In this document: positions 18,672 to 33,134 of the stretch, piece by piece | Layout: every line of letters begins with the position of its first letter | How positions within the stretch are numbered: position 1 is the first letter of the stretch | Assembly: GCA_943359485.1 (NCBI GenBank) | Contig: CALRHR010000003.1 | Span: 1 to 59,217 of the forward strand | From: Candidatus Nomurabacteria bacterium | GTDB taxonomy: Bacteria > Patescibacteriota > Minisyncoccia > Phycocordibacterales > UBA9973 | Direction of reading: 5' to 3' | Length of the DNA: 59,217 bases | Made by a program: the position numbers and the translations under genes | The notes under the pieces: model-generated | Database searches by the model: none | Told to the model about the DNA's origin: nothing | What the model saw: the letters and a program-made list of their open reading frames with translations, nothing else

Positions 18672-18786
18672 GAGTTTGGTCTGAAATCAAATTTTTTCGG
18701 TACGGATTTTTTGAAGCTTAAAAAATCCTGAAGTTCTCGGCTCGACAGCCTCGAAACCCCTTCAAAATTTATTTCAGACCAAACTC
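18672..18786. repeat. 115-bp element closed by a perfect 16-bp inverted repeat (bidirectional terminator, MITE or RNA)
   Basis: GAGTTTGGTCTGAAAT (18672-18687) pairs with ATTTCAGACCAAACTC (18771-18786). Inner hairpin GGATTTTTT-GAAGCTT-AAAAAATCC (18704-18728). Confidence 0.55.
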
Positions 18787-20133
18787 CCAAAGAAAAGAAT
18801 CTTTTTTGTTTACAAAAAATAGATAATTTTCGTTTTCATCGAGTGCGAGTTTGATTCCGTCAATTTCTTCTCCGCCCGGAGTCGTACTTGGGTCTATTAA
18901 GAGAGTAGTATTTCCATTTTTCAAATCTATTTTCCAAAGTTGGTCGGAGAAAGATACTTCTCCTTGATACCAGGCGTCCGGGTAAGCCCCAAAAGGAATA
19001 CTCGTCGGCACAGAGCAATATACAACATCACTGACCTTACCCCAGACACATTTTTCTGGCAGGGTTCCTACCCCCAGGGTTGTTGAGTTTCCATTTCCGA
19101 TGTCGTATGTATACAACGACAAATTATTGTCGCTATAAAGAATTGTTTTTCCGTCAGGACTCATGCGCGTGGTCAATCCATTTATGTTGCCCAAAATTTT
19201 AGATGGCATACCTTCGGCTGGACTTAATCTATATGCAAAACCCGGGACATTTGCAGAAGGTTTAGTAGAGAGAGTGATTGTCTTTTCAGTCCCCCACCAA
19301 GGACTCCATTCTGTGAAAACAGAATCAAAGATTTGAGTTTTTTTGTTATCCTTAAGATTTAAGGTTATTCCAACAATCCCATTTCCATTCTCAAATAAAT
19401 AGAATATTTTCGTTGTGTCTGGAGAAATACTCATGTCTAAAATATTCCTTCTCTGGAATTCCCCCTTAAATTTTGTATTTATTATATCTGCGCCCAGGTA
19501 TTCTTTTGGCAGGGAGCCGGCGAATGATTCTATTGTCTTTTCATCTGTCCCTAAATATCGCATAACCACTACCTCTCCGTGATTGCCGAAATAAGCTTCG
19601 TGCACTTTTGGGATTGTGATATCTAAGAATTTTCTTTCTTCGATTTTGTCTGCGAATGTTTGGAAAATATTTCCTGTTTCTCTCGCTACATATCTTAATG
19701 TCGTTGCAAATTCAGTTAATGGTGGGGTTGGTTTGGGCGTCCCAGTGCCGATTTTACTACCTTCTTGGGGTGAGGTTTCAACATCGGATGGGACAGTTTC
19801 AACAGCAGTCAATATCGGCATTGGGGCGACCAGTCTTTCTTTTTGATATGTTACAAATCCAGCGATGGGCTGACTTGAAACTTTTTTCAAGTTCACTACT
19901 TGTATTTCTCCTTCGGGGGGCGGAGTGTACCCCGATACATCTACAGGAGGTGTATCCACTTTAGGTTTCTGGCCACCAGTTCCAAAAGGATTAAATTGTG
20001 AAAAGAAATTTGTTCCGGTATTGTCTCCTGCGTCTGGAGTAGTTGCGTCAGGACGGAAATACAAAAACAAAGAAACGGAAACCATGATGATTACCAGAAT
20101 TATTATTAAAAGTGTAAAATTTCTTCTTTGCAT
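18769..20133 (-). CDS. membrane-anchored hypothetical protein with TolB/PD40-like beta-propeller features
   Basis: N-terminal TM segment, Pro-rich linker, and repeated motifs such as SPDGKTILYSDNN and SPDTTKIFY. Confidence 0.45.
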   Translation of the reverse strand: MQRRNFTLLIIILVIIMVSVSLFLYFRPDATTPDAGDNTGTNFFSQFNPFGTGGQKPKVDTPPVDVSGYTPPPEGEIQVVNLKKVSSQPIAGFVTYQKERLVAPMPILTAVETVPSDVETSPQEGSKIGTGTPKPTPPLTEFATTLRYVARETGNIFQTFADKIEERKFLDITIPKVHEAYFGNHGEVVVMRYLGTDEKTIESFAGSLPKEYLGADIINTKFKGEFQRRNILDMSISPDTTKIFYLFENGNGIVGITLNLKDNKKTQIFDSVFTEWSPWWGTEKTITLSTKPSANVPGFAYRLSPAEGMPSKILGNINGLTTRMSPDGKTILYSDNNLSLYTYDIGNGNSTTLGVGTLPEKCVWGKVSDVVYCSVPTSIPFGAYPDAWYQGEVSFSDQLWKIDLKNGNTTLLIDPSTTPGGEEIDGIKLALDENENYLFFVNKKDSFLWEFGLK

Positions 20134-20142
20134 AAATTTAAT

Positions 20143-21273
20143 TTAATCAAAAGCAGAAGCACAGATAGGAATATCTCCGCCCCACGCTATTCTTTGTCCA
20201 TTTCGGTAATTAAATAATATTTTTGCGACCGCTATATTTTGTGCTGGGTCTTTTAGGACTGCTACGCAGTCATTATACTTGTTTTCCATTCCAGATTTAA
20301 GTTTGGCATCATAATAAATTCTTCCACTTGAGTTTGTTTTTATGTAGTTTACTCCATTGATTGGAGAACCGTCAGTTAATGTAAATAAATTAGCACAAGA
20401 ATTTCCACTGGAATCTTTAACATAAACACCATTAGCTAATAAATTTATTTGGAATAAACCAAAAGAAAAAGACTTACCATCTGCGCCAACATCGGTTTGA
20501 CTTGATGAAGCTGGATTTCCGCCGCTTTCGATATTGCAAAGTTTTGACATACCTTCTGCTTTTGATCCAAAGGTGCTTAAATTTGCAGTGGCACAAGGTC
20601 CAGAAGTTACTGGAGTACAGCGTGCAATATTACCAGCTGTAACAGGTTTCTGGTATACACTATTTGCTTGTACACCAACCTCAAATGTTGCTGGAGTAAT
20701 TTTAATGTCAGTTTTGAGTAAATTAGGATTTATTGTGTAAAGAAGCGTATAAGCACCGAGAATTAAAATAATTCCGAGTAAAGCTCCTTGAATTCTGTCT
20801 TTACCATGCTCTTTGCTTGACACCAACTCACTTGTCATATACTCCATACCTCCTATGACGATCATTACCACTGCCAAAACTGCGCATAGACCAATAAATA
20901 GTTTTAGCATGAGGTTTAAATAATTTCCCAGTTGATCGCCTTTAGGGTCAAAAGTTTCCAAAATTCCATTTGGACATTTGGGACCGACTTCGCAGGGTAG
21001 TGGTGCTAGAAAAGTATATTTTGGATCTGCTGTGGTTGCTGCTGCTGGGGGGGGTGTAGATGTAGGTATAGGGCCATCCCAGCGGTATTCGTTTGGATAT
21101 TTTATACAATCTTCGTAAGATTTAGAAGGATTGACTGGATCGTTTGCTCTGCGGGTTCCTATTCCTGCTCTATAACGGCATACACCACCAACTTGTGCTT
21201 GTATCTTTTCGGTAATACCAAAAAAACTTATGAAGACAATTAATATGAGAATGTATGATGAAATTTTTTTCAT
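20143..21273 (-). CDS. T4SS pilin-like (TrbC/VirB2-type two-TM hairpin) protein fused to a lytic transglycosylase-like domain
   Basis: Signal peptide and central ..LFIGLCAVLAVVMIVIGGMEYMTS..GALLGIILILGAYTLLYTINPNLL. The C-terminus has CNIESGGNP..GLFQIN, an SLT-like ES..GLxQI motif. Confidence 0.55.
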   Translation of the reverse strand: MKKISSYILILIVFISFFGITEKIQAQVGGVCRYRAGIGTRRANDPVNPSKSYEDCIKYPNEYRWDGPIPTSTPPPAAATTADPKYTFLAPLPCEVGPKCPNGILETFDPKGDQLGNYLNLMLKLFIGLCAVLAVVMIVIGGMEYMTSELVSSKEHGKDRIQGALLGIILILGAYTLLYTINPNLLKTDIKITPATFEVGVQANSVYQKPVTAGNIARCTPVTSGPCATANLSTFGSKAEGMSKLCNIESGGNPASSSQTDVGADGKSFSFGLFQINLLANGVYVKDSSGNSCANLFTLTDGSPINGVNYIKTNSSGRIYYDAKLKSGMENKYNDCVAVLKDPAQNIAVAKILFNYRNGQRIAWGGDIPICASAFD

Positions 21274-22248
21274 TTAAAATTCTATACTTATTTCTTTATT
21301 TGTCGTCTGAAAAATTCTGTCCATATTTTCTATTACGAGCTTTAATTTAGATGTTCCAGAAACTCCATCTTGCACTTGTAGTGGCATAAAGTTTTTTCTG
21401 TAATTTGGCACAGGAACTGTGTTGTCGTTTATAGACCAATTCCATATTAGTCTAGGGTTCTGTAATTCTTTTGGTGAAATAAAATACGGAACGGCTTCCA
21501 CCACCTCTTTTCCTTCGATCCTGTATGGGTCGGTGAGCGCGTGTTCAAAGACGGTTCCCATTTTTGAATTATTTTTATAAAAGACTATTTTTGGTTCGGT
21601 TGTTGTTACATCCAGACTAGCTTCAGCTGTGAATTTTTGATCAGTTGTCGAAGCTACTACTCCTACATTGTTCGAATTTTCTAAATAGTCATTGGTATAA
21701 GTATAAGAGTTTTTACCATAACCAGAAGCTTCTTGGTCATTCGTGTAATCCTTCTTCCAGGTATAAGTCATATTTTTTGAGTTAACCAAACTTCCATCTA
21801 CACTGGTTTTTACTTCTGGCATGGCTATTACTTTTATTTCGCTGTCAGCTACAGGAAGAGCCTTGCCTTTGTAAAATGGTGGAACAAAAGAGTCTGTTGC
21901 TTGCCAGAGCAAGATCATCTCATTTGGTCGTATGGTTATAGTTTTTTCAAGTTCGCCTTCCGGTAAGGATATAAGAGCTCGGACACTGGAAAAACTTCCA
22001 GCTGGTGGAGCTTTTAATAAAAATGTTTTTTTGCCAACCCCAGATAAAATTACAGTGCCGTTAAGAGACCAACTTATTTGGACACTATCTAAATTGTTGG
22101 CATAACTTGACAGGGTTATGCTGATGTTTTCACCAGGCACCGGGTTAGGGGGCACCATATTTACTAAAATACTACTAGACGAAGCAGAAAAAACTTTTGT
22201 TGCGAACAATGTGAGCATTAAACACAATAATAAAAATTTAAATTTCAT
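21274..22248 (-). CDS. secreted hypothetical protein (beta-rich, Ig-like repeats likely)
   Basis: Signal peptide MKFKFLLLCLMLTLFATKVFS. No catalytic motif recognised. Confidence 0.45.
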   Translation of the reverse strand: MKFKFLLLCLMLTLFATKVFSASSSSILVNMVPPNPVPGENISITLSSYANNLDSVQISWSLNGTVILSGVGKKTFLLKAPPAGSFSSVRALISLPEGELEKTITIRPNEMILLWQATDSFVPPFYKGKALPVADSEIKVIAMPEVKTSVDGSLVNSKNMTYTWKKDYTNDQEASGYGKNSYTYTNDYLENSNNVGVVASTTDQKFTAEASLDVTTTEPKIVFYKNNSKMGTVFEHALTDPYRIEGKEVVEAVPYFISPKELQNPRLIWNWSINDNTVPVPNYRKNFMPLQVQDGVSGTSKLKLVIENMDRIFQTTNKEISIEF

Positions 22249-22259
22249 AACTCCTTTTA

Positions 22260-24110
22260 TTATATCACTTTTGTTTGGGGGTTCATATTTCCTGCCTCAT
22301 GGTCTTCTTTGGCTTTTTTGTTTGATAATATCTGTGAAGGGTCTGAAGTGATAATTTGGTCTTCAGTGTAAGAAGAAAGAGTTTTTATAGCAATGTGTTT
22401 TAGCCCTGCAAAGAATATTCCCTCTCCTACAGAGGATTCCAGAAGTAGGTATTTTTCCTCATCAGTCAAGTTGAAAGTTTTTTGCAGTAGATCAATGGTG
22501 GTAGGAGATTGCTTTAAGAGAAGCTGGATGGAAGAGTTTGTGATGATAGGTATTCCATAGGGAGAATTTAAAAAGTCAGCCGCGTCTTGGGTGATAGTAG
22601 AAAGGCCGAGGTAGTATTTTCTGCCTCGCTTGGCAATAGAATAAAGAAAAGAAGCTGTGTCTTCGGACTTCATCATCCACCAAGCTTCGTCGACGACGAG
22701 CAGGCGTTTTTTCAAAGTTTTTCTAATTGCATTCCAGATGTAATGCATGATGATATACATGGCTACTGGCTTTAGCTCATCTTCCATGTCGCGAACAGAG
22801 AAAACAACAAATTTTTTATTTATATCCACATTACTTGGTCTATTTAAAAATGTTGCCCAAGAACCCCTAGTGTATTTAACCAATCTTTGTACCACAGAAT
22901 CACTTCCCTCCATTCCTGAGAGGACCATTTCAAAATCAGAAAGTAATGGTGGTTCAATGTTAGAGAAATCTGACTCCGGGGTAATATCTTTTATGGCATA
23001 AGTTTCGGAAATAGCTCTGTCCACCATAGAATCTTCCTCTGGAGTAAGTCCACCCAACATTAATCGGAAAAGCCCAACTAGGTTGATAATATTTGAACGC
23101 AACACATCCTCGGCTGTTTCATCTTCTCGGGGTATTGGCAAGTCAAAGGGGTTTATATGGTGGTCGCTTGAAAGAGATATATTGAAATATCTTCCACCAA
23201 CAGCTTCGGCCAAAAATTCATATTCCCGCTCGGGGTCTATTACCATGACATCAATATCAAACATCAGAGATCTGAGAATTTCTAATTTTGTAGCGTAACT
23301 TTTCCCGGCGCCAGCCTTGGCGAAGGTCACCGAATTATAATTTTCTAGTGAAAATCTGTCAAAAATAACCAAGCTTGAATTGTGTCTGTTCATACCATAG
23401 AGAATCCCTCTGTCGGAAGTAAGATCGAAAGATATAAATGGGAAAACAGACGAAAGTGGTTCAGAGTTCAATTTTTGATTAATGTTTAACAGATCCATGT
23501 TGAGTGGGATGACACTTTTAAAACCATCTTCTTGTTGAAAAATCGCCGGTTTGATGTATATCAACTTTGACTCTAATATTGATTTTATTTCATTTTCAAT
23601 CTTGAAAAGTTCCATTTCATTATCGGCATAGATCGTTATATAAATACCAACATCAAACATTTTTTCTTGTGCTTGCATTAAAGTATCACGCAATCCTTCT
23701 AGGTCCTGGTAAGCAGTGTCGAGCATTGGGTCGCGCACCATTCCACGCGTTTCACGCATGGAAATCTGGCTTTGCACTTCGGCCACCTTTTTTTGAAATT
23801 GTCGTAATATCAAGGATGTGTCAATCGGATGAATAAAAATTGAAATGTCAAAAACTTTATCCAAGTTGATTATCGGAGAAAACCAATTATCTGATAAAAA
23901 TCTCGGGTAAGAAATTATGAAAAATGTGCGAGCGATTTTGTCACCTAGACTTATGGATTTAGATTCGATCTTGAGCCCAGAAGGCGCGATAACATCTTGA
24001 AGCTCTAGACTAGCTTGGTCATATATCTGCAATGGCAGTATCGGAGAGACAGAAGCTCTCACACTTTCGACTCCACTACTTTTTTTAAATAATTTATCAA
24101 ATATTCCCAT
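22260..24110 (-). CDS. virB4: VirB4/TrbE/PrgJ-family T4SS ATPase (middle + ATPase domains)
   Basis: Walker A AKAGAGKSYATK, ..VIDPEREY.., and Walker B LLVVDEAWWMM. The YPRFLSDNWFSPI region is typical of VirB4 of Gram-positive systems. Confidence 0.85.
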   Translation of the reverse strand: MGIFDKLFKKSSGVESVRASVSPILPLQIYDQASLELQDVIAPSGLKIESKSISLGDKIARTFFIISYPRFLSDNWFSPIINLDKVFDISIFIHPIDTSLILRQFQKKVAEVQSQISMRETRGMVRDPMLDTAYQDLEGLRDTLMQAQEKMFDVGIYITIYADNEMELFKIENEIKSILESKLIYIKPAIFQQEDGFKSVIPLNMDLLNINQKLNSEPLSSVFPFISFDLTSDRGILYGMNRHNSSLVIFDRFSLENYNSVTFAKAGAGKSYATKLEILRSLMFDIDVMVIDPEREYEFLAEAVGGRYFNISLSSDHHINPFDLPIPREDETAEDVLRSNIINLVGLFRLMLGGLTPEEDSMVDRAISETYAIKDITPESDFSNIEPPLLSDFEMVLSGMEGSDSVVQRLVKYTRGSWATFLNRPSNVDINKKFVVFSVRDMEDELKPVAMYIIMHYIWNAIRKTLKKRLLVVDEAWWMMKSEDTASFLYSIAKRGRKYYLGLSTITQDAADFLNSPYGIPIITNSSIQLLLKQSPTTIDLLQKTFNLTDEEKYLLLESSVGEGIFFAGLKHIAIKTLSSYTEDQIITSDPSQILSNKKAKEDHEAGNMNPQTKVI

Positions 24111-24116
24111 TGCATT

Positions 24117-24185
24117 CTAGGCTCTAGGCTCTAGGCTCTAGGCATTAGCATTGTGCTAGCGCCTAAGGCCTAAGGCCTAGCTGCC
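24117..24185. repeat. CTAGGC-type palindromic repeat (family C, copy 2)
   Basis: CTAGGCTCTAGGCTCTAGGCTCTAGGCATTAGCATTGTGCTAGCGCCTAAGGCCTAAGGCCTAGCTGCC. The arms are imperfect reverse complements. Confidence 0.75.
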
Positions 24186-24818
24186 TATATTAATTTTCCC
24201 TTCTACTTCTCCGGGGTTAAAGACTTTATAAAATACTTCTACCACTTCTTCTGTGCCCAGTTGAACCGATTTTATACCACAACGAGAGAGTCCTTGTTCG
24301 ATTACTCCCACCCTTTCTTCCAGTTGGGATCTTTTTTCTTCAAAATCTGCTTCTTTTGCTACTTGTGCTTCTTCTCTACTTCTACCCCCGAATAATCTTT
24401 TCAATATTCCAGAATCTGTTTTAAAGGTAGTACTGGTATAAGGCACGACTACGAAAAAACTTTTAGTCATAATATTGACCGACTCAGTAAAATTTCGAAT
24501 AAACTCGATGTATTCTTTTGTTTGCAGTTTAAGTAAAGCTTCACTCTGTACTTTCATTCGCTCTTCTAGGGTTAAAAGATATGGTCTTATGTCGAGTCTT
24601 CTGCTCTGTACTGATATTTGTACTGGGAAATCTAAAGTATTTAGAAAACTTTGGAATTGAAAAATGGTGGCTTTTTGTTCATCATCCGATTTGAGTGATA
24701 AATTAATAGAATTGGCCAGAACTATAGCCCGCAAGTCACCGTCTTTGAGCACAATCACACCATCACGGACTTCCTTGATCGGTACAAACTCTTGAGTTGC
24801 TTTTGCATTTAATGCCAT
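24177..24818 (-). CDS. VirB4 N-terminal-domain-like protein (probable detached N-terminal part of VirB4)
   Basis: ..TQEFVPIKEVRDGVIVLKDGDLRAIVLANSINLSLKSDDEQKATIFQFQSFLNTLDFPVQI.. resembles the N-terminal domain of Gram-positive VirB4 ATPases. The stop codon lies in repeat copy 2. Confidence 0.5.
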   Translation of the reverse strand: MALNAKATQEFVPIKEVRDGVIVLKDGDLRAIVLANSINLSLKSDDEQKATIFQFQSFLNTLDFPVQISVQSRRLDIRPYLLTLEERMKVQSEALLKLQTKEYIEFIRNFTESVNIMTKSFFVVVPYTSTTFKTDSGILKRLFGGRSREEAQVAKEADFEEKRSQLEERVGVIEQGLSRCGIKSVQLGTEEVVEVFYKVFNPGEVEGKINIGS

Positions 24819-24826: not shown

Positions 24827-24899
24827 CTAGGCTTTGGGCTCTAGGCGTTAGGCTTTAGCTTTTTTTGTGCTAGAGCCTAGTGCCTAAGGCCTAGCTGCC
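24827..24899. repeat. CTAGGC-type palindromic repeat (family C, copy 3)
   Basis: CTAGGCTTTGGGCTCTAGGCGTTAGGCTTTAGCTTTTTTTGTGCTAGAGCCTAGTGCCTAAGGCCTAGCTGCC. Confidence 0.75.
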
Positions 24900-25330: not shown

Positions 25331-25386
25331 AGGCTCTAGGCTTTAGGCGCTAGGCCCTAGTTGGACTAATTACTAGGTTCTAGCTG
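25331..25386. repeat. CTAGGC-type repeat (family C, copy 4)
   Basis: AGGCTCTAGGCTTTAGGCGCTAGGCCCTAG..ACTAATTACTAGGTTCTAGCTG. Confidence 0.7.
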
Positions 25387-26526: not shown

Positions 26527-26530
26527 AATT

Positions 26531-26613
26531 TAGGCCTTAGGCCGCTAGGCTCTAGGCCTTAGCTTTTTTAATAATAACACAATTTTTCCCTACTAGTGCC
26601 TAAAGCCTAGAAC
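26531..26613. repeat. CTAGGC-type repeat (family C, copy 6)
   Basis: TAGGCCTTAGGCCGCTAGGCTCTAGGCCTTAGCTTTTTTAATAATAACAC..CTACTAGTGCCTAAAGCCTAGAACC. Confidence 0.75.
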
Positions 26614-27019
26614 CTGTGTCTACAAATGCTGAATAATCTCCACCAGAGAGGATGAAATCAAGATTTTGCTTTGGAGTTGTATTTCTGGTTGGCAGATTTT
26701 TTCTAATCTTTTCTTCTAGAAGGTTGCTCATTGGAGTGAATATTTTTTCCAATGCTTCGTTGGCTATCTTTTCTGCTTCAGCTTTGCTGGTGCCGACATT
26801 GTTTTCAATATTAGTTGCATAAAAATCGCCATCTTCAATTCCAACTAAAACTAATAGAGTTTCCACTTGCAGGTCGTTTGTCTCATTTTCATCAAGTAGA
26901 TATTTTTTACCAATTTTTTCGATAATCATTCCCCAATTCAAAGAATTTATCACCTCTTGTGCCTCTTTTGGCAGTTTCCCTACTTCGTCTTTAATTATTT
27001 GTTTTAATTTGTCTGTCAT
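26600..27019 (-). CDS. hypothetical protein (paralogue of the N-terminal domain of 25825..26526)
   Basis: Shared pattern: ..LP.E.Q..I....W...I..........E...L..ET.L.L.G....... The stop codon and last 4 residues lie in repeat copy 6. Confidence 0.45.
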   Translation of the reverse strand: MTDKLKQIIKDEVGKLPKEAQEVINSLNWGMIIEKIGKKYLLDENETNDLQVETLLVLVGIEDGDFYATNIENNVGTSKAEAEKIANEALEKIFTPMSNLLEEKIRKNLPTRNTTPKQNLDFILSGGDYSAFVDTGSRL

Positions 27020-27025: not shown

Positions 27026-29362
27026 TTATGTTTTTGTTCCACTATCTAACTTTGTTTCTGATCTTATTTTTGCTGCTGCCTCTCTATCAGCCCTACTTCC
27101 TAAGTCTGCACCTGACCAAATACCAAGAGTAAGTCCACTTGTGATACTTTTTGTCCAGCGATTTCCCCTTGTTATCTTGTTTGCATAAGCTTGTTTTCTT
27201 TGCGCAGTTTCTGTTTTTATAGCCTGAACTTGCGATTTTTTCTGGTCTTCTAAAGCGTCAATACTTACCCCAGTTCCAGTTTCAATTCTAGTCATTCCAG
27301 TTGTTGGATCTGTTATCATATAATCTAATCCTTTATGGAAATCTTTTTTGTTTTGTTTTGCAAAATCTAACTCACCATTTGCTGTGATTAATGTTGCTCT
27401 TGCAGCTCCTTCTCCAGGAGTACCTTTGGCCGCATTCAGTTTGCTACTTGCATCATTTACTTCTTGTCTTTTCTTTTCAATTGTCTTATCAAGTGTTTCA
27501 ATCTTTTGAGCATTTTCCGCTAATAGTGCCTGCAAATCACCTTCTGTTTTATTCAATGCTTGCTTTAGCCTCTCATCTTCACCAACCTTGAGTTCATCCG
27601 CTCTCTTCATTCTTTTTTCTACTTTTTCTTTTCTCATTTTCGTCCATCCGCCTTCTTGTGTTTTGATAGCGCCTGCGCCACTAGCTAAGCCCGCTGCGCC
27701 CAAAAGCTTGCCAGCTCCCGGGATTGCGCGCGCATCATAACTCTTGCTTTGTAGATAATTTCCTGTTCTTTTAAGGCCGACTTTGTTTGCAAGCCCGCCC
27801 AGGCCTCCACCAATGACCGTCCTTCCAGCCAGTGCTGCTCCGCCTGTGGCTACGCCGAGCGCAAGACCTGCCGCAAGTCCACCAACTTTCATCACTGCCT
27901 CCCCCAATGCTCCGGAACTCTCTTTAGCAAAGCTGGTGGCTTTTATAAGCAGAATTAAAGTTATCATTGCTGGTATAACCAAAAGTAAAATAGTTTCCAT
28001 CCATCCTCGTTGCGTTACATCTCTGGCTGCCAGACTTCCGAGTGGGTCTGCTTTTATTACTAAAAATATAAAATACAAGAAAAACATAAAAATCGGCGCC
28101 ATAAAAGACACAGTGAGTAAGCGATGCGTCCATTCTTTCCAGCCTATGTATTTAACACCCTCCAGGATTGGTATTGTCAGAGACATAAAAGCGAAAGGAG
28201 AAAAAACAATTAAAACCCAAAGTTCAATTAACCTGCTTACAAAACTCAAACCAGCTATAAAAAAGGCATAAGAAGCAAAAGCCATAATTACACCGGTAAC
28301 GAATATTATTCCAAGCAGTAGGGGAATCGGGACTGCGGGGTCGCTTGAACTTAAAAAATAAGCTCCCAAGCCGGCAAGCGCTCCGAGACCCGCCCCAACC
28401 CCGGGTATTGGGATAAAGTTTCCTATTAATGCCCCGGTTCCTACATAACCAGCAAGATTGGTGCCACTAAATTCAGTATTTTTCTCTTGGATGGTTTTAA
28501 AAAATTTTTCAGATAGCAATCTGCTTGGGTCAAAACCACTTACCAATGCCGCAGACAAACCCTTGTCTTCCACGGTTTTCGCCAAGTCGAGCACAGGGAT
28601 ATGGTTTCTGTCTAATGGCTTTCCATCTTTTTTTACGGTCACATCGATTTTGTTATAAAAAATTAAAGCTAGGACATTTGAAGTGTCGATAACTACTTTG
28701 GTAAAGAACATGGAGAAGTTTATAAGTAATGCCATGATTATGACATGGGCGATCATTTTTTTTGTTTCACCTCCGAGACCTAAAATTAATCTAATTGCAA
28801 TATATAGAAGAACGAGAATAAAAAAAAGATTTGAAAGATCTCGGACAATTTCCCAAAGCTTTCCTATGAATTCGCCAGTCAAAAGAGCGCTACTTAATCC
28901 CAAAGCCACCACAATATCAAAGAACCTTGCCGTGATGACAAGTACAAATGAAGTCAGTGTGTAGAAAATATAATAAAAAAGAAGCACTAAGCATCCACCC
29001 ACACTTCCAGATATAATTTTTCCGCAAGCCTTTTCAACTGCTTGCTGGAGCGGTGAGCCGGAGGTTGCCTCTGCCTCTGCCGCCTTATTTGCCGCCGCTT
29101 GTTCTACTGGACCGAGGATTCGTGCTGATGGAGTTGTTGCACCAGCTGGTATCCATTCCGCATTAGCATTAAGACCACATTGTTCTTGTGGGGTATTTTC
29201 TTGGCCCGGTGTGTATGCAATAATATCTCCCTTTTTGTTAAAAGCTCCATCTGCTTTATGACGACAAGTTCCACTCGGACTTTGTGCTTGTGCTTCCCTC
29301 CCCGCGCCCAAAAATCCGACGAGGATGATGACTATTAGTATGTATGGCAAAAATTTTCGCAT
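27026..29362 (-). CDS. polytopic membrane protein, VirB6/TrbL-like T4SS channel candidate, with C-terminal coiled coil
   Basis: Signal peptide, at least 8 predicted TM segments, Gly/Ala-rich segments, and a charged coiled-coil tail. It sits in an operon with VirB4 and PrgI. Confidence 0.5.
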   Translation of the reverse strand: MRKFLPYILIVIILVGFLGAGREAQAQSPSGTCRHKADGAFNKKGDIIAYTPGQENTPQEQCGLNANAEWIPAGATTPSARILGPVEQAAANKAAEAEATSGSPLQQAVEKACGKIISGSVGGCLVLLFYYIFYTLTSFVLVITARFFDIVVALGLSSALLTGEFIGKLWEIVRDLSNLFFILVLLYIAIRLILGLGGETKKMIAHVIIMALLINFSMFFTKVVIDTSNVLALIFYNKIDVTVKKDGKPLDRNHIPVLDLAKTVEDKGLSAALVSGFDPSRLLSEKFFKTIQEKNTEFSGTNLAGYVGTGALIGNFIPIPGVGAGLGALAGLGAYFLSSSDPAVPIPLLLGIIFVTGVIMAFASYAFFIAGLSFVSRLIELWVLIVFSPFAFMSLTIPILEGVKYIGWKEWTHRLLTVSFMAPIFMFFLYFIFLVIKADPLGSLAARDVTQRGWMETILLLVIPAMITLILLIKATSFAKESSGALGEAVMKVGGLAAGLALGVATGGAALAGRTVIGGGLGGLANKVGLKRTGNYLQSKSYDARAIPGAGKLLGAAGLASGAGAIKTQEGGWTKMRKEKVEKRMKRADELKVGEDERLKQALNKTEGDLQALLAENAQKIETLDKTIEKKRQEVNDASSKLNAAKGTPGEGAARATLITANGELDFAKQNKKDFHKGLDYMITDPTTGMTRIETGTGVSIDALEDQKKSQVQAIKTETAQRKQAYANKITRGNRWTKSITSGLTLGIWSGADLGSRADREAAAKIRSETKLDSGTKT

Positions 29363-29368
29363 AATGTT

Positions 29369-32191
29369 TTATGGTTGCGGATTGGGTTCGGATTGTGGCA
29401 GTGGCTCATTTGGAACCCAATCTCCTCCCACGGTATTACATTCGTCTTTTGTTATTCCCGATTCTTCCGGAAATACAAATCCCGTAGATCTATCAGGGAC
29501 ATTACTGCAAGTACCTAAATCAGAACCAATGGTATCATTCGGCAAAATATAATCGTTTCCTATCTGGGTTGTCCCGGGCAGGTTCCCCTTGTAGTCTAGG
29601 ACATTTGCTTTCCATATAATATTGCAACTCAATTCTATATCAACAGTATAATTACCAAAGATGCCACCCCAGCGCCTCCACTTCAAGACATCGTTTGCAT
29701 TTACATATGGAACTTCCGGATGGGTTATAGGATTCCCACTTGAACCAGAAAGTGCTCCTGCGACACCTCCAACAACTACACTAATACCGCCAGTAGCAAC
29801 AGCCCCAGCGCCTCCAAGAATTGCACCCAAAATTCCACGCCCAGGATCATCGTTTTTGTGGTCAAAAGTTTCATGATTATATCCTCCTTTAATGGGCGCA
29901 TCGCAATAAATTTCCTTCTCCGTATTTCCAATGGTGGTGCTGCCAGTTCTTGCTGTGAGGGTAGAAAATGGTCCGCCTTGCGTACTCCAGCCTTTTACTG
30001 GCCTTTCTGCATTACATTGTGTCGTCAGTGAAATTAACTTAGCTAATTTTTCTTTGGCGATAAACAAGTCATTTTGTATTTCATTTACAGTATTACTATT
30101 AGAGACTCCAATTTTGTTTGCATTATATTGTTTTCTTAACGAAATTAAAGTTTTTTCATTTCCAGAGTCTGAAGGTGGTTGGATGATTTTCCCTGCTGAA
30201 TCAAATGTAGAAATAGCGTTCAAGCCCGCATTAATTGCTTGTAGCCTTACCAGTGCTTGAGCCCTTGTTCGTCTTCTGTCTGTCAACTCGTCTGACTGTT
30301 GCGCCAGCTTCCCTATTTCATCTACGGCATCCATATAGATCGCTGAATTTGGAAGTTCGGTCATCATGTTATTAATTATCCAATCTTTTAGAAATTTTAC
30401 AGCAAAGTTTAATTCTTTAAGAGCCAGGTCAGCTTGAGCCGACTTATTTCCATCACTATCACTTTGTTTTCCTTGAAGTTTTTGGCTGTTTCTATTCATT
30501 TCATTCATCAATCTTTCTTGCCATCCCAAGTCTGGACCTGGTTGACAGATGTCGAGCAGTCTGGCTTGTGGCCAGATCTTTCCTAGCATTTGTGTTAGGC
30601 CCGGGCTACATGCATTGTTTACTGTTACTCCACCATTCTGTGTATTTATAACAGGGTTACATGTGACTGGATTATCTATTAACCAAATTTCTGCTTCTGT
30701 ATTTTTTATGTCACCGGGGATGTATTGAGCTCCTGGTGGGCAATCCCAATTTTTCAGAATTTGGTTATAAATACAGTTTCGGCTGTTGCCCGTTTCTTCG
30801 GTAACTGTCGTTATTTCTCCTGTTTCATCTCCTGTAGTTTTTGTGGTGATAATGGTTCTTCCTTCTAATTGTTTTTTGAATTCACTCAACACAACTTCTT
30901 CATCTGGACCCATATTCCAAGCATCATTGGTGCCATCACCTGGACCGCCAAGTTTTTGCCCCTCGTACTCCCATTCATCTACAGAGGGTCTTGGATTTAC
31001 TTTAGTTGCGAGAGCACTTAAACCATCTCCTATAAACTTATTTAACAAAGCATCTACAATGGCTGATATGCTGGTACCTACTGCCATGGCTAATTCACTT
31101 TGTCTATAACTTGAACTAAGAGCGGTCATAATCTGGTTACCGACTACTGAGCCTGGGGTTGTAACTTTCAATCCACCTGGACAGGTATTACTTTCTGCCC
31201 AGTCAGATTTTTCTTTATCAAAATCTTGGTCATATTTAGTATCGTAGGCTTCTCGAGCTTGGATAGAGGCTTGAGATTCTCTTTGTCTTTCAAGATTTTC
31301 AATTACTTCTTCATTTTCTCCAGTTGTAGGATTATATCTATAAGTAGTACTCTGCTCGGTATATGTTTCATATTGTATATCTGGTGGATCATAAACCGAA
31401 TTATTATGAAAAGTTGGCTTTTGGAATTCGTTTTTGCCGTTGTTATAGCTAGGATTTGTTGGGCAAGTTTTGGGTGATAAAAATCCCAAACCCTGCTGGA
31501 GTGTATCTTTTACTTGATTTGCTTTGCTAACTAGCGTACCGTCGAGTCGATTGGCTAGTTCTTCTGTTGCTAGCATTCTGTAACCCAAGTAATTATTTTG
31601 TGGATACTGAGTGTTGATTAAAAATCCATTCCATCCACCGATGTCAAAGTCAGTCTGGAAGCGGTAGAGCAACTGTGGGTCTCTGATAGCCTTACTCAGT
31701 GTATACTGCGCGTTGTCGCTAAATTGTCTTTTGTATGCGCCTATTGTGCTTAGAGCAAAGGCTTTTCCAAATGGAAACTTGCTATTGTCATAGCCGGTCA
31801 TATCTACAAAATCCTTGATCTGGAATTTGGCGATGTCTTTAAAAAAAGAACTGGGGTTTTGTACGAAAAGTGGAGAGCCATGAAAACCGGAATTTATCCA
31901 GTTTATAGTGCTTGTGGTCATTTTCTGCAAAAATCTTTTAGCAACAGTCATGACTATTTGTTTTAAAACTTCTTGGGCAACATTTTTTATTGAAATTGAA
32001 GTGGAAGTTACTGTTGACGCTGTGTTTGTTCCAAGTAAAACTGTTCTGATAAAACCATTAGGTCCTAAATCAAAAACCGGCCAGGCTGCTTGTGTCTGTT
32101 TTGGTGTAGAAAATAAAACAGTGGGTACTATTATTGCAACAATGAGAAGAGAGGAGATTAATTTTGTAATTTTATTGTTTTTAGCTAGCAT
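29369..32191 (-). CDS. large membrane-anchored extracellular hypothetical protein (940 aa)
   Basis: N-terminal TM/signal anchor, many paired Cys residues, and a C-terminal Gly-rich hydrophobic segment GILGAILGGAGAVATGGISVVVGGVAGAL. No enzyme motif recognised. Confidence 0.5.
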   Translation of the reverse strand: MLAKNNKITKLISSLLIVAIIVPTVLFSTPKQTQAAWPVFDLGPNGFIRTVLLGTNTASTVTSTSISIKNVAQEVLKQIVMTVAKRFLQKMTTSTINWINSGFHGSPLFVQNPSSFFKDIAKFQIKDFVDMTGYDNSKFPFGKAFALSTIGAYKRQFSDNAQYTLSKAIRDPQLLYRFQTDFDIGGWNGFLINTQYPQNNYLGYRMLATEELANRLDGTLVSKANQVKDTLQQGLGFLSPKTCPTNPSYNNGKNEFQKPTFHNNSVYDPPDIQYETYTEQSTTYRYNPTTGENEEVIENLERQRESQASIQAREAYDTKYDQDFDKEKSDWAESNTCPGGLKVTTPGSVVGNQIMTALSSSYRQSELAMAVGTSISAIVDALLNKFIGDGLSALATKVNPRPSVDEWEYEGQKLGGPGDGTNDAWNMGPDEEVVLSEFKKQLEGRTIITTKTTGDETGEITTVTEETGNSRNCIYNQILKNWDCPPGAQYIPGDIKNTEAEIWLIDNPVTCNPVINTQNGGVTVNNACSPGLTQMLGKIWPQARLLDICQPGPDLGWQERLMNEMNRNSQKLQGKQSDSDGNKSAQADLALKELNFAVKFLKDWIINNMMTELPNSAIYMDAVDEIGKLAQQSDELTDRRRTRAQALVRLQAINAGLNAISTFDSAGKIIQPPSDSGNEKTLISLRKQYNANKIGVSNSNTVNEIQNDLFIAKEKLAKLISLTTQCNAERPVKGWSTQGGPFSTLTARTGSTTIGNTEKEIYCDAPIKGGYNHETFDHKNDDPGRGILGAILGGAGAVATGGISVVVGGVAGALSGSSGNPITHPEVPYVNANDVLKWRRWGGIFGNYTVDIELSCNIIWKANVLDYKGNLPGTTQIGNDYILPNDTIGSDLGTCSNVPDRSTGFVFPEESGITKDECNTVGGDWVPNEPLPQSEPNPQP

Positions 32192-32216
32192 TTATTTATA
32201 TTATATAGATTCTTAC

Positions 32217-33134
32217 TTAATTATTCAATTTTTGTTGTATCGTAATCAAAAGACTGTCGATAGATGACTCCAGGGTGTCAGTATTTGGCGCATATTGAGC
32301 TATTGCGCTTAAGGCGACAATGGTGTCGCTCTCATATAGCCTTATGTCGCTTATGTTTTCTAGTATCTTTTCTAAGATGTTTACTACAGCTAAGTGTTGC
32401 GTAGAGAGGGATTTTGGTACGGGAATCTTTACCATAGCAGTTACTGTATCTCTCATATTTTCTACAATGAGGTCAAGTTTTGATAAGACATTGACATCAA
32501 CATTGTCTTCATCAATAAAAAATTCTTGCAAGACATCAATAACTGTATAATTTGCTGGATTTTTTATTTTAATATTCTTTAACGCATTATTGTAAGTTGT
32601 GATAGTTTGTTTGCTATTATCATCTAGTATTTTCAATTCGGAGAGTAAAAATACTTTTCTAGTAGGGGTGTTCTTTATATGTTCTGCTAATGATTCTCCT
32701 AATTTATTTATTGTAGCTTGGTCCATTTCTCCGGCTTGGTTTAGGGTGGCGACAGTAGAAAAGAATTCTCTGGAAAATTTATCTGTTTCTGTTAGTGTTT
32801 CTGTTTCTCCTGTGCTCGTATTTCCTTCTCCGCCCAAACTCATCTCTTGTGCAGATTTTAACTTTGCTATTTCGACACTGTCAGAAGTTCCATCATCATT
32901 TGTGTCTTTCTTTAATGGGTCTGTGCCCCACAAGGTTTCTTCCCAGTCCAATACTCCATCTCCATCTGTATCTTTTATTATTATATTCTCCAGTGTTTCG
33001 TTGCCGTAAGCTAAACCTTCTTGACTAAGTTGGTTCTGTGGATTTTGAAACACTGTTTTGTTCTTTAAGAAAAAAAGAACAACAAGAAAAACTATCGCGC
33101 AGGCGAGTAAGAGCACTACTTTTTTATGTTGCAA
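32217..33134 (-). CDS. membrane-anchored hypothetical protein with thrombospondin type 3-like Ca-binding repeats
   Basis: N-terminal TM segment. DTDGDGVLDWEETLWGTDPLKKDTNDDGTSD matches the DxDxDG calcium-binding repeat pattern. Confidence 0.5.
   Translation of the reverse strand: MQHKKVVLLLACAIVFLVVLFFLKNKTVFQNPQNQLSQEGLAYGNETLENIIIKDTDGDGVLDWEETLWGTDPLKKDTNDDGTSDSVEIAKLKSAQEMSLGGEGNTSTGETETLTETDKFSREFFSTVATLNQAGEMDQATINKLGESLAEHIKNTPTRKVFLLSELKILDDNSKQTITTYNNALKNIKIKNPANYTVIDVLQEFFIDEDNVDVNVLSKLDLIVENMRDTVTAMVKIPVPKSLSTQHLAVVNILEKILENISDIRLYESDTIVALSAIAQYAPNTDTLESSIDSLLITIQQKLNN

What the first reader, a model, noticed from the sequence alone, without database searches (positions are those of the whole stretch)
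18769..33134. Origin-proximal, relaxase-less type IV secretion-like gene cluster with large uncharacterised exported proteins
Twelve co-directional minus-strand genes encode T4SS-type parts: a VirB4 ATPase (22260-24110), a detached VirB4 N-domain-like ORF, a PrgI/VirB3-like protein and a VirB6/TrbL-like polytopic protein (778 aa). A VirB2/TrbC-type pilin hairpin fused to an SLT-like lytic transglycosylase is also present. The remaining products have no recognisable catalytic motif. They are a 940-aa Cys-rich exported protein, a TSP3-repeat protein, an Ig-like secreted protein, a PD40-like propeller protein and two paralogous small proteins. No relaxase, VirD4 coupling protein, VirB11, integrase or tRNA attachment site is visible in the window. 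The locus therefore does not look like a conjugative element. It may be a chromosomal apparatus for DNA uptake or host-cell contact, as has been discussed for CPR bacteria. At least half of the components are functionally unassigned.
Basis: partly seen in the sequence, partly recalled or inferred. Interest (0 to 1): 0.75.

Follow-up and report, generated by a model that had tools for sequence, protein, structure and literature searches.

The report
Known Patescibacteria type IV secretion cluster
This is the chromosomal type IV secretion-like machine that ultrasmall "candidate phyla radiation" bacteria carry next to their replication origin; it was described in 2023-2025, so the locus is real but not new, although its pilin gene is fused to a rapidly exchanged cell-wall-cutting enzyme.

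Summary
Window 18769-33134 carries 12 co-directional minus-strand genes, 2.2 kb from dnaA/dnaN.

- **Above curated cut-offs:** VirB4 (NCBIfam CD1110 family), PrgI/VirB3 and a T4SS_pilin hairpin.
- **Weaker support:** a detached VirB4 N-domain (TrsD-like) ORF, a VirB6-like polytopic protein (hhalign probability 73% against canonical VirB6) and an SLT-like domain on the pilin. That domain scores below cut-off but keeps an invariant E-S…GLxQ motif.
- **Not an ICE:** no relaxase, coupling protein or VirB11 lies in the window or about 10 kb beyond it. The block is syntenic in nearly all the Paceibacteria/Nomurabacteria genomes fetched that span it.

This is the Patescibacteria-clade, monoderm-type (MPF-FATA-derived) T4SS of Quiñonero-Coronel et al. 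2025, shown to be essential in a saccharibacterium by Wang et al. 2023. Relaxase loss and dnaA/dnaN/ksgA proximity are already published.

What I add:
- Five accessory families are conserved in the block: a TSP3 protein, a 940-aa fold-orphan, a duplicated cytoplasmic domain, a three-Ig-domain protein and a membrane-anchored protein.
- The gene at 25366-25725 is a sporadic passenger.
- The pilin hairpin carries cassette-like, unrelated peptidoglycan-hydrolase domains in close relatives.

Its function is inferred, not shown.

The parts
18769..20133 (-). 454-aa membrane-anchored exported protein: N-terminal TM segment, Pro/Gly-rich linker and a conserved C-terminal domain of about 310 aa. It is the last gene of the conserved block.
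   Evidence: TM segment at aa 1-30. Syntenic in 68 of 80 loci at a median 41% identity. C362, C373 and several Trp are invariant. Similarity to PD40/TolB is only weak: Pfam E 0.11 and a PDB TolB profile hit at E 0.012. The fold is not established.
20143..21273 (-). 376-aa fusion protein. Order: signal peptide, Cys-containing N-extension, VirB2-like pilin hairpin (aa ~112-183), then a C-terminal SLT-like lysozyme-type domain (aa ~215-376).
   Evidence: T4SS_pilin scores 28.3 bits, above the 26.6 cut-off, and TrbC hits at E 0.007. The C-domain scores below cut-off for SLT/SLT_3 but is consistent in 5 of 5 family members, with an invariant E-S and GLxQ. It is the only pilin-like ORF in the window. 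The gene at this position in relatives has the pilin hairpin in 62 of 65 cases and carries NlpC/P60, VanY, YkuD, M15_4, SLT_2, Amidase or CHAP domains instead.
21274..22248 (-). 324-aa exported protein made of three tandem Ig/FnIII-like beta-sandwich domains, always immediately downstream of virB4.
   Evidence: The AF2 model has pLDDT 83.9 and is all-beta. Foldseek against the PDB gives 236 hits at E<=1e-3, all tandem Ig/FnIII proteins, with Hoc best at 4e-7. Found in 76 of 80 loci, always 321-344 aa long. No Pfam match.
22260..24110 (-). VirB4 ATPase body (616 aa) that lacks the usual N-terminal domain.
   Evidence: NF045971 (CD1110 family) scores 358.7 bits against a cut-off of 325 and matches model positions 182-733 of 752. 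P-loop_TraG hits at E 5e-23. It is 74-90% identical to VirB4 of Paceibacteria MAGs and 28-35% identical to VirB4 of Firmicutes and Actinobacteria plasmids.
24177..24818 (-). TrsD-like protein (213 aa), the detached N-terminal domain of VirB4.
   Evidence: It aligns to the N-terminal regions of four models: VirB4_plasma (E 1.5e-9), TrsD (1.1e-6), CD1110 (1.6e-5, positions 2-130) and VirB4_CagE (3.3e-5). Present in 80 of 80 loci at a median 65% identity. TrsD is reported as the commonest VirB4-linked component in Patescibacteria (PMC12102498).
24891..25325 (-). PrgI/VirB3-like membrane protein (144 aa).
   Evidence: PF12666 scores 33.7 bits against a cut-off of 27. There is a hydrophobic hairpin at aa 25-55. 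Found in 75 of 80 loci.
25366..25725 (-). Passenger gene, not part of the machine: a 23S-rRNA-intervening-sequence-type four-helix-bundle protein (119 aa).
   Evidence: PF05635 hits at E 1.6e-34 and TIGR02436 at 4e-33. It occurs in only 12 of 80 loci and at three different positions inside the cluster.
25825..27019 (-). Two paralogous cytoplasmic proteins (233 and 139 aa) that share a helical domain of about 100 aa. Many relatives encode them as one two-domain protein.
   Evidence: BLASTP E 1e-8 over 94 aa. Fused versions include L001:7895-8893, L006:7621-8709 and L009:7361-8356. No TM segment. No Pfam or PDB match.
27026..29362 (-). 778-aa 'extended VirB6-like' polytopic membrane protein. Order: signal peptide, small Cys module, at least 7 TM segments, Gly-rich stretch, and a charged, probably coiled-coil tail of about 270 aa.
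   Evidence: Hydrophobic segments run from aa 115 to 511. hhalign of the family against 7 canonical MPF-T VirB6 proteins gives probability 73%, E 3e-5, aligning window aa 377-494 to TrwI 169-279. Only 2 of 56 orthologues hit Pfam TrbL, and none of 62 closer relatives do. The family is huge: 10,932 representatives at E<=1e-3.
29369..32191 (-). 940-aa exported protein with no known fold. Order: signal peptide, highly conserved N-domain (aa ~90-240), long helical bundle (aa ~530-735), Gly-rich hydrophobic stretch (aa 787-817), and a small Cys-containing C-terminal domain.
   Evidence: 404 homologues, all hypothetical Paceibacteria proteins with no Pfam match. The AF2 model has pLDDT 72.9. Foldseek finds no match at E<=1e-3 in the PDB and nothing meaningful in BFVD. 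Six Cys are invariant.
32217..33134 (-). 305-aa membrane-anchored protein with two TSP3-type Ca-binding motifs and a helical C-terminal part. It is the first gene of the block.
   Evidence: TM segment at aa 1-30. TSP3_bac scores 21.3 bits against a cut-off of 25, and the DTDGDGVLDWEE and DTNDDGTSD motifs are visible in the sequence. It is syntenic wherever the locus reaches that far.
13907..16557 (-). dnaN and dnaA, which mark the replication origin 2.2 kb from the cluster.
   Evidence: Full Pfam domain sets for both proteins. Perfect DnaA boxes at 15052 and 16625 flank dnaA.
33265..36218 (-). ksgA (rRNA adenine dimethylase) and a uvrD/pcrA helicase: conserved housekeeping neighbours on the upstream side.
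   Evidence: Pfam RrnaAD at E 4e-49 and UvrD at 7e-84. Both are syntenic in relatives. ksgA is named as a typical virB4 neighbour in PMC12102498.

Best explanation
[quoted passage not shown] Here it is in its Paceibacteria (Nomurabacteria-like) form, an 11-gene block beside oriC.

Shown:
- A split VirB4 ATPase (TrsD-like N-domain plus ATPase body), a PrgI/VirB3 membrane partner and a VirB2-type pilin hairpin are present.
- No relaxase, coupling protein or VirB11 is nearby.
- The block is collinear with housekeeping genes across many species.

Inferred:
- The ATPase, PrgI and the polytopic VirB6-like protein form a cytoplasmic-membrane translocon.
- The exported proteins build the extracellular part that meets the host cell. 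These are the 940-aa helical protein, the three-Ig-domain protein, the TSP3 protein and the anchored 454-aa protein.
- The pilin hairpin places its C-terminal peptidoglycan hydrolase outside the membrane, where it opens a cell wall at the contact site.
- The machine serves the epibiotic or parasitic lifestyle, by export of proteins or exchange of material with the host, rather than conjugation.

My confidence in the identity is about 0.95. My confidence in the non-conjugative, host-contact role is about 0.6.
For: - **Component assignments:**
- **Taxon:** 74-90% VirB4 identity to Paceibacteria MAGs, against 28-35% to Firmicutes and Actinobacteria plasmid VirB4 of the same CD1110 family.
- **Synteny:** uvrD-ksgA-...-virB4-...-dnaA-dnaN is collinear in nearly all the full-length loci fetched.
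- **Conservation:** VirB4 is more conserved than DnaA, with medians of 87% against 83% in close relatives and 77% against 65% in distant ones. The exposed proteins are only 30-40% identical.
- **No mobility genes:** none in the window or its flanks.
- **Gene order parallels pCF10 and a C. perfringens plasmid:** VirB6-like, PrgI, VirB4, then a peptidoglycan hydrolase.
- **Literature:** PMC12102498 reports the same component set, relaxase absence and dnaA/dnaN/ksgA proximity in Paceibacteria. PMC10633639 reports that the T4SS is essential for epibiotic growth of Southlakia epibionticum and lacks a recognisable relaxase and coupling protein. PMC10936435 reports T4SS pilins among the most expressed genes of Paceibacterales growing with methanogens.
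Against: - No substrate, effector or host is known for this lineage, and all functional data come from a different class (Saccharimonadia).
- VirB6 homology is only moderately supported. The window protein and 62 close relatives fail Pfam, and tblastn finds nothing in plasmids.
- No VirB8-like protein was found. The protein in the expected position has Ig-like domains.
- A T4CP could be encoded elsewhere in the genome. PMC12102498 finds VirD4 homologues in many Patescibacteria, far from virB4.
- Only this window and about 10 kb beyond each end could be read.
Confidence: 0.8

Rival explanations
1. It is a DNA-uptake (competence) machine, analogous to the Helicobacter pylori ComB T4SS. That system also works without a relaxase, a coupling protein or VirB11, and it imports DNA that the cell uses as a nucleotide source or for recombination.
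For: - The same three components are missing here.
- The organism presumably cannot make nucleotides, a general CPR trait cited in PMC10633639.
- A ComM-like Mg-chelatase gene lies about 8-9 kb beyond the right end of the window.
- In class ABY1 the T4SS loci sit next to comF, recG and radA (PMC12102498).
Against: - In S. epibionticum, competence depends on type IV pili and ComEC. Deleting comEC abolishes transformation without loss of viability, whereas the T4SS is essential, so its essential role is not ComEC-dependent DNA uptake (PMC12857230 summarising PMC10633639).
- ComB is a diderm MPF-T system with VirB7/9/10, and none of those is present here.
- No competence gene lies inside or next to this cluster.
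Confidence: 0.1
2. It is a conjugative element, or a decaying remnant of one, integrated beside the origin. Its relaxase, T4CP and integrase would lie outside the stretch read.
For: - The VirB4 belongs to the CD1110 family, which is typical of Gram-positive conjugative plasmids and ICEs.
- A tyrosine recombinase (49933-50871) and tRNA genes (42246-43408) exist in the window.
Against: - The block and its housekeeping flanks are collinear in nearly all the related species fetched that span it, with no break in synteny.
- The recombinase is Xer-like (SAM_1 plus Phage_integrase domains, 312 aa). It sits between rpsO/NYN and housekeeping genes, and it is 17 kb away.
- GC content is uniform across the region.
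- All genes are intact, and VirB4 is more conserved than DnaA. Decay would not leave that pattern.
- No relaxase or T4CP lies within 10 kb beyond either end of the window.
Confidence: 0.03
3. It is a surface-filament or adhesion organelle only. The VirB4 machine would assemble a pilus-like or anchored structure from the pilin fusion and the exported proteins in order to hold the host, without translocating any substrate. The hydrolase would cut only the bacterium's own wall to let the structure through, which is the classical VirB1 role.
For: - There is no coupling protein for substrate recruitment.
- Relatives carry Ig-like, TIG, CBM_10 and Big_1 adhesion-type modules in the N-extensions of the pilin protein, and the three-Ig protein fits the same theme.
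- Gram-positive T4SSs also carry very diverse membrane-anchored hydrolases for their own wall, such as the SLT plus NlpC/P60 protein of a C. perfringens plasmid and PrgK of pCF10.
Against: - The polytopic channel-type VirB6-like protein is retained and strongly conserved, as are two cytoplasmic accessory proteins. An assembly-only machine would have little use for them.
- The hydrolase class turns over very fast between close relatives. That is harder to explain if the target is the bacterium's own conserved wall.
Confidence: 0.1

Closest known systems
Patescibacteria-clade T4SS (Quiñonero-Coronel et al. 2025, Microb Genom, PMC12102498; S. epibionticum SEML1_0006-0019, Wang et al. 2023, Cell, PMC10633639)
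   Same: - An MPF-FATA-type VirB4, a separate TrsD-like protein, PrgI/VirB3, a VirB6-like protein and a VirB2-like pilin.
- No relaxase or T4CP nearby.
- A chromosomal position next to dnaA, dnaN and ksgA, which the paper reports specifically for Paceibacteria.
   Different: - This lineage has a single pilin gene that is fused to a hydrolase, not the array of 2-11 free pilins described for Saccharimonadia and Microgenomatia.
- The five conserved accessory families found here are not named in the parts of those papers I could search. They are the TSP3 protein, the 940-aa protein, the duplicated cytoplasmic domain, the three-Ig protein and the 454-aa protein.
Gram-positive conjugative T4SS of the MPF-FATA class (pCF10 Prg/Pcf; CTn2/CD1110-type elements; C. 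perfringens plasmid pSXP-169_2)
   Same: - The VirB4 family is the same: NF045971, at 28-35% identity.
- The core order is the same: VirB6-like, PrgI, VirB4, then a membrane-anchored peptidoglycan hydrolase.
- Both have the monoderm design, with no VirB7/9/10.
   Different: - Those elements carry a relaxase, MobC and a VirD4-type coupling protein within a few kb. This locus has none.
- Their VirB4 is a single polypeptide of about 780-800 aa, whereas here it is split.
- Their hydrolase is not attached to a T4SS_pilin hairpin. The hydrolase of the one plasmid scanned (pSXP-169_2) shows no T4SS_pilin match.
- They are mobile and patchily distributed, whereas this block is fixed in the chromosome.
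Helicobacter pylori ComB DNA-uptake T4SS
   Same: It is a chromosomal T4SS that works without a relaxase, VirD4 or VirB11, and it includes VirB2-, VirB3-, VirB4- and VirB6-like parts (from established knowledge of the family).
   Different: ComB is a diderm MPF-T system with VirB7-10. No homologues of those proteins, and no competence genes, are found here.
VirB1 / PrgK / CwlT-type T4SS cell-wall hydrolases
   Same: An extracytoplasmic peptidoglycan hydrolase is encoded right after virB4. The window's domain has the SLT family's E-S…GLxQ motif.
   Different: - The domain is fused behind a VirB2-like pilin hairpin.
- At this position, closely related genomes carry unrelated hydrolase classes: NlpC/P60, VanY, YkuD, M15_4, SLT_2, amidases and CHAP.
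- The window's own domain stays below Pfam's SLT cut-off.

Membership tests
Patescibacteria-clade T4SS (MPF-FATA-derived) | VirB4 ATPase of the monoderm (CD1110 / MPF-FATA) type | tested here: met
   NF045971 scores 358.7 bits against a cut-off of 325, and P-loop_TraG hits at E 5e-23. The nearest plasmid relatives are from Firmicutes and Actinobacteria.
Patescibacteria-clade T4SS (MPF-FATA-derived) | VirB4 falls inside the monophyletic Patescibacteria clade | tested here: inconclusive
   I built no tree. By similarity it is 74-90% identical to VirB4 of 80 Paceibacteria/Nomurabacteria MAGs and 35% or less to any plasmid VirB4. That makes membership very likely.
Patescibacteria-clade T4SS (MPF-FATA-derived) | A separate TrsD-like (VirB4 N-domain) protein next to virB4 | tested here: met
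   Four VirB4-family models align to their N-terminal parts at E 1.5e-9 to 3e-5. The gene is present in 80 of 80 loci. hhalign against a single PrgJ sequence was not significant.
Patescibacteria-clade T4SS (MPF-FATA-derived) | PrgI/VirB3 homologue | tested here: met
   PF12666 scores 33.7 bits against a cut-off of 27.
Patescibacteria-clade T4SS (MPF-FATA-derived) | VirB6 homologue | tested here: inconclusive
   Pfam finds nothing for the window protein or for 62 close relatives. TrbL hits 2 of 56 orthologues, best E 2.7e-4. hhalign against 7 canonical VirB6 proteins gives probability 73% and E 3e-5, and 21% with a second alignment in the same register. Topology and gene position fit.
Patescibacteria-clade T4SS (MPF-FATA-derived) | VirB2-like pilin near virB4 | tested here: met
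   PF18895 scores 28.3 bits against a cut-off of 26.6. The gene at this position carries the hairpin in 62 of 65 cases.
Patescibacteria-clade T4SS (MPF-FATA-derived) | No relaxase or coupling protein linked to the cluster | tested here: met
   Pfam scans of the window's large ORFs, plus precomputed Pfam for the flanks 10 kb beyond each end, find none. The rest of the genome was not available.
Patescibacteria-clade T4SS (MPF-FATA-derived) | Chromosomal position near dnaA, dnaN and ksgA (the Paceibacteria pattern) | tested here: met
   dnaA lies 2.2 kb downstream and ksgA is directly upstream. DnaA boxes flank dnaA. The arrangement is syntenic in relatives.
Patescibacteria-clade T4SS (MPF-FATA-derived) | Required for epibiotic growth | not testable with these tools
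   This has been shown only for S. epibionticum, by Tn-seq (PMC10633639).
Integrative conjugative element or conjugative plasmid | Relaxase plus a type IV coupling protein | tested here: not met
   None found in 59 kb plus about 20 kb of flanks.
Integrative conjugative element or conjugative plasmid | Integrase and attachment site at the borders, with patchy distribution among relatives | tested here: not met
   The borders are ksgA/uvrD and jag/yidC/dnaA. The block is collinear in nearly all the full-length loci fetched. The only recombinase is Xer-like and 17 kb away.
SLT lytic transglycosylase (PF01464), for the C-terminal domain of 20143-21273 | Profile match above the curated cut-off | tested here: not met
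   19.2 bits against a cut-off of 21.3, E 9e-4. SLT_3 hits at E 0.11. No PDB sequence match.
SLT lytic transglycosylase (PF01464), for the C-terminal domain of 20143-21273 | Catalytic Glu-Ser followed by the G-L-x-Q motif | tested here: met
   E34, S35, G57, L58 and Q60 are invariant in the 5-member domain family. All 5 members hit SLT_3 and 3 hit SLT, each below cut-off.
VirB8-like (NTF2-fold) T4SS component | An NTF2-like domain behind an N-terminal TM segment, encoded after virB4 or the hydrolase | tested here: not met
   The protein downstream of virB4 is three Ig/FnIII-like sandwiches. The 454-aa protein was not modelled.
PD40/TolB beta-propeller, for 18769-20133 | Significant repeat or profile match | tested here: inconclusive
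   Pfam PD40 hits at E 0.11. The family profile hits PDB TolB at E 0.012 over 56 residues. I made no structure model.

The most novel reading that the evidence does not exclude
In Paceibacteria the T4SS 'pilin' may be a carrier module rather than a plain filament subunit. A conserved VirB2-type hairpin ends in the motif T-I-N-P-x-L-L. It sits between variable adhesion-type N-extensions and a cassette-like C-terminal peptidoglycan hydrolase.

The hydrolase is replaced by unrelated enzyme classes even between genomes whose VirB4 proteins are at least 90% identical. The classes seen are NlpC/P60, VanY, YkuD, M15, SLT, amidases, CHAP and at least three unknown families.

This behaves like a polymorphic effector locus. 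The swapped domain would be aimed at the host's cell wall, matched to its chemistry, and would help set host range. The T4SS would present it at the contact site.

I found no description of this fusion or its turnover in the papers I could search.
Probability: 0.3. Interest if true: 0.65.

Novelty: already known. Interest (0 to 1): 0.3.

Why it matters
The Patescibacteria T4SS is one of the few machines shown to be essential for the epibiotic life of these ultrasmall bacteria, and what it transports is an open question. This window does not change that picture. It is an ordinary, well-conserved member.

Its value is as a clean reference for the Paceibacteria version. It gives an 11-gene core with fixed order, a list of five conserved but unassigned partners, and one sporadic passenger gene.

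The pilin-hydrolase fusion with rapid domain replacement is the one lead worth passing on. If the hydrolase is aimed at the host wall, it gives a sequence-readable handle on host specificity in a group where hosts are almost never known.

Tried and rejected
- **940-aa protein:** neither the Pfam scan of the protein nor the PDB search with its family profile gave a hit. Foldseek of the AF2 model found only generic helical bundles in the PDB (best E 0.07) and nothing meaningful in BFVD, where TM-scores were 0.1 or lower. I considered a VirB5/CagL-like helical adhesin, but CagL ranked 42nd at E 0.6, so I do not claim it.
- **VirB6-like protein:** tblastn of the TM core against 72,556 plasmids gave no match. 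hhalign against a single C. perfringens TrbL_2-like protein was not significant. A Pfam scan of 62 close relatives gave no TrbL hit.
- **TrsD-like protein:** hhalign of its family against PrgJ of pCF10 was not significant.
- **SLT-like domain:** the word-indexed homologue search found only 2 proteins, so I could not build a deep alignment or a structure model. A PDB profile search gave nothing.
- **Duplicated cytoplasmic domain:** the PDB profile search gave no hit.
- **Operon structure:** the promoter and terminator scan found no more sites than shuffled sequence, so I make no operon claim.
- **VirB8 role for the 324-aa protein:** rejected, because its fold is Ig-like.
- **ICE hypothesis:** rejected on synteny and on the absence of mobility genes.
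- **VirB11 at 6145-7842:** the T2SSE ATPase there is 565 aa and has an MshEN N-domain. That makes it a PilB-type pilus ATPase, not VirB11.

Full report
**What is there.** The window is low in G+C (about 37%). Positions 18769-33134 are filled by twelve ORFs on the minus strand with short gaps. Downstream lie jag and yidC on the other strand, then dnaA (15211-16557) and dnaN (13907-15004). Upstream lie ksgA (33265-34146) and a uvrD/pcrA helicase (34188-36218). Perfect DnaA boxes at 15052 and 16625 flank dnaA, so 'origin-proximal' is fair.

**Assignments that pass curated thresholds.**
- 22260-24110 is a VirB4 ATPase of the monoderm CD1110 family. NF045971 scores 358.7 bits against a cut-off of 325, matching model positions 182-733 of 752. 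P-loop_TraG hits at E 5e-23.
- 24891-25325 is PrgI/VirB3 (33.7 bits against 27).
- 20143-21273 carries a T4SS_pilin hairpin at residues 112-180 (28.3 bits against 26.6), with a weaker TrbC/VirB2 match.

**Assignments that are weaker.**
- *24177-24818 (TrsD-like).* It aligns to the N-terminal stretch of four VirB4-family models: VirB4_plasma at E 1.5e-9, TrsD at 1e-6, CD1110 positions 2-130 at 1.6e-5, and VirB4_CagE at 3e-5. Together with the truncated VirB4 body, this reads as a split VirB4.
- *27026-29362 (778 aa, VirB6-like).* It has a signal peptide, at least seven hydrophobic segments and a charged tail of about 270 aa. It has no Pfam hit.
  - Only 2 of 56 syntenic orthologues touch TrbL, best E 2.7e-4, and none of 62 closer relatives do.
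  - tblastn finds nothing in plasmids.
  - A profile-profile comparison with seven canonical MPF-T VirB6 proteins (R388 TrwI and relatives) gives probability 73% and E 3e-5. It aligns window residues 377-494 to TrwI 169-279. A second alignment gives the same register at 21%.
  - I call it VirB6-like on position, topology and this moderate signal, not on a passed test.
- *C-terminal domain of the pilin protein.* It scores 19.2 bits against Pfam SLT, whose cut-off is 21.3. All five members of its small family hit SLT_3 or SLT, and Glu-Ser and G-L-x-Q are invariant. It is probably a lysozyme-type transglycosylase.
- *TSP3 motifs of 32217-33134.* They are visible in the sequence but score below cut-off (21.3 bits against 25).
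- *PD40/TolB likeness of 18769-20133.* It rests on E-values of 0.01-0.1.

**The unassigned products.**
- *940-aa protein.* It has 404 homologues, all hypothetical Paceibacteria proteins.
  - Its AF2 model (pLDDT 72.9) shows a confident long helical bundle at residues 530-735. The most sequence-conserved N-terminal domain is modelled poorly.
  - Foldseek finds nothing at E<=1e-3 in the PDB and nothing meaningful among viral models.
- *324-aa protein.* It models well (pLDDT 83.9) as three beta-sandwich domains. It matches tandem Ig/FnIII proteins such as Hoc at E 4e-7, the SiiE adhesin and titin.
- *25825-26526 and 26600-27019.* These are paralogues (E 1e-8). They have no membrane segment, and many relatives encode them as one two-domain protein. 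The family profile matches nothing in the PDB.
It occurs in only 12 of 80 related loci and at three different sites inside the cluster. I treat it as a passenger.

**Organism and conservation.** The VirB4 protein finds over 500 relatives in species-representative genomes. The best 80 are Paceibacteria, Nomurabacteria, Kaiserbacteria, Taylorbacteria and Zambryskiibacteria MAGs at 74-90% identity.

In nearly all the full-length loci fetched, the gene order is uvrD, ksgA, 305-aa, 940-aa, VirB6-like, 139/233-aa, PrgI, TrsD, VirB4, 324-aa, pilin fusion, 454-aa, then jag/yidC, dnaA and dnaN.

| Protein | Median identity to the window |
|---|---|
| VirB4 | 81% |
| TrsD | 65% |
| PrgI | 55% |
| Exposed proteins | 30-41% |

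VirB4 is even more conserved than DnaA: 87% against 83% in close relatives and 77% against 65% in distant ones.

**Not a mobile element.** Pfam scans of the other large ORFs show ordinary chromosomal genes. They include polA, a PilB-type pilus ATPase, ruvB, ruvC, tyrS, a class A PBP, an M23/LysM peptidase, the CCA enzyme, a Xer-like recombinase, rpsO and PNPase.

The contig continues for 10 kb beyond each end without a relaxase or coupling protein. Those genes are 9-17 kb away, behind housekeeping genes, and the synteny argument makes an ICE very unlikely.

**Comparison with the literature.** Quiñonero-Coronel et al. 2025 (PMC12102498) describe this system.
- A monophyletic Patescibacteria VirB4 clade is nested in MPF-FATA.
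- TrsD is the commonest linked component, followed by PrgI/VirB3, VirB6 and VirB2-like pilins.
- Relaxases are nearly absent.
- In Paceibacteria and Microgenomatia, virB4 lies close to dnaA, dnaN, ksgA, rnpA and rpmH.

Wang et al. 2023 (PMC10633639) showed by Tn-seq that the equivalent locus (SEML1_0006-0019) is essential for epibiotic growth and lacks a recognisable relaxase and coupling protein. The 2025 nomenclature review repeats this and notes that essentiality cannot be due to ComEC-dependent DNA uptake (PMC12857230). The headline of the finding is therefore already known.

**What may be new.**
- *Fusion at a fixed position.* The gene at the pilin position keeps a T4SS_pilin hairpin in 62 of 65 loci. 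A single domain-sized C-terminal extension follows it. That extension is NlpC/P60 in 14 loci, VanY in 8, Amidase_5 in 6, YkuD in 5, Peptidase_M15_4 in 3, and SLT, SLT_2 or CHAP in 2 each, and Amidase_2 in 1. Both domains lie in one ORF in the representatives checked.
- *Diversity and turnover.* The 64 extensions fall into 19 mutually unrelated clusters. Among locus pairs whose VirB4 proteins are at least 92% identical, 6 of 11 carry unrelated extensions. At 90% or more, 40 of 51 do.
- *Other features.* N-terminal extensions vary too and sometimes hold TIG, CBM_10 or Big_1 modules. The window has only this one pilin-like ORF.
- *Prior description.* I found no description of this fusion or its turnover in the papers I could search. 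PMC12102498 does note that VirB1 homologues are linked to virB4 in Paceibacteria.
- *Caveats.* Gram-positive T4SSs also use very diverse anchored hydrolases on their own wall. My choice of the gene at this position was automatic, so a few loci may be mis-paired.

**Mechanism.** Shown: the parts list, the missing mobility functions, the fixed chromosomal position and the strong purifying selection on the ATPase.

Inferred from family knowledge:
- VirB4 (with TrsD), PrgI and the VirB6-like protein form the membrane translocon.
- The exported proteins form the extracellular part.
- The pilin hairpin leaves both termini outside the membrane, so the hydrolase faces a cell wall.

Whether that wall is the bacterium's own or the host's is unknown, as is what the machine moves. 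I favour a host-contact, non-conjugative role (about 0.6) over a ComB-like DNA importer (about 0.1), an adhesion-only organelle (about 0.1) or an ICE (about 0.03).

**Verdict.** Interest is low to moderate. The pilin-hydrolase cassette pattern is the only lead that goes beyond the published picture.

Noticed in passing
window 25366-25725 (-); also L009:8403-8762, L026:5550-5900, L064:9619-9990: A 23S-rRNA-intervening-sequence-type four-helix-bundle gene (PF05635, distantly Avd-like) sits inside the T4SS cluster. It occurs in only 12 of 80 related loci and at three different intergenic positions, so it looks like a small mobile or passenger gene with a preference for this operon.
   Followed up: partly
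window 20143-21273 and orthologous-position genes in L001-L080: The pilin hairpin ends in a nearly invariant T-I-N-P-x-L-L motif, after which the sequence diverges into 19 unrelated C-terminal domain clusters. One cluster of 12 and several smaller ones have no Pfam match at all.
   Followed up: partly
window 20143-21273 aa 1-80 and 27026-29362 aa 1-80: The N-termini of the pilin fusion and of the VirB6-like protein resemble each other (BLASTP E 1e-7). Both have a similar signal peptide ending in AQAQ, followed by a small two-Cys module (C-R-x-x-A … C … W). Part of the score may come from signal-peptide composition.
   Followed up: partly
window 25825-26526 (C-terminus) and homologues in L001-L080: The 233-aa paralogue family ends in a conserved D-P-Y-R motif after a long low-complexity Pro/Glu-rich tail. 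It could be a short docking peptide, but I did not test this.
   Followed up: no
window 22260-24110 compared with 15211-16557: VirB4 is more conserved among relatives than DnaA, with median identity 87% against 83% in close relatives and 77% against 65% in distant ones. This is unusually strong constraint for a secretion ATPase.
   Followed up: partly
window 45657-47336 (-): A 559-aa protein with no Pfam match is packed with CxxC and Cys-rich repeats, which look like many zinc-ribbon motifs. Its function is unknown.
   Followed up: no
window 36573-40667 (-): Two large proteins with no Pfam match (361 and 976 aa) lie just upstream of uvrD. The larger one is Pro/Glu/Lys-rich with one hydrophobic segment near residue 770. 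The related loci fetched extend only 10 kb upstream of virB4, so synteny here is untested.
   Followed up: no
window 6145-7842 (+); L092:14385-15485: Type IV pilus genes lie near the T4SS on the same contig. A PilB-type ATPase with an MshEN domain is in the window, and PilM lies just beyond its left end.
   Followed up: no
window 40748-41056 (-) and 42480-42905 (-): Judged by eye from the translations, two small ORFs flanking the tRNA cluster look like a GIY-YIG-type nuclease (YVYILKS…LYIGSTNDLKRRLSEHN) and a YraN/UPF0102-type endonuclease. Neither was scanned against a library.
   Followed up: no
window cumulative GC skew, minimum near 40-42 kb: Cumulative GC skew reaches its minimum around 40-42 kb, near the tRNA cluster, where perfect DnaA boxes also occur at 41049 and 43061. 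The minimum is not at dnaA (16.5 kb). The exact origin position is therefore not settled by skew.
   Followed up: partly
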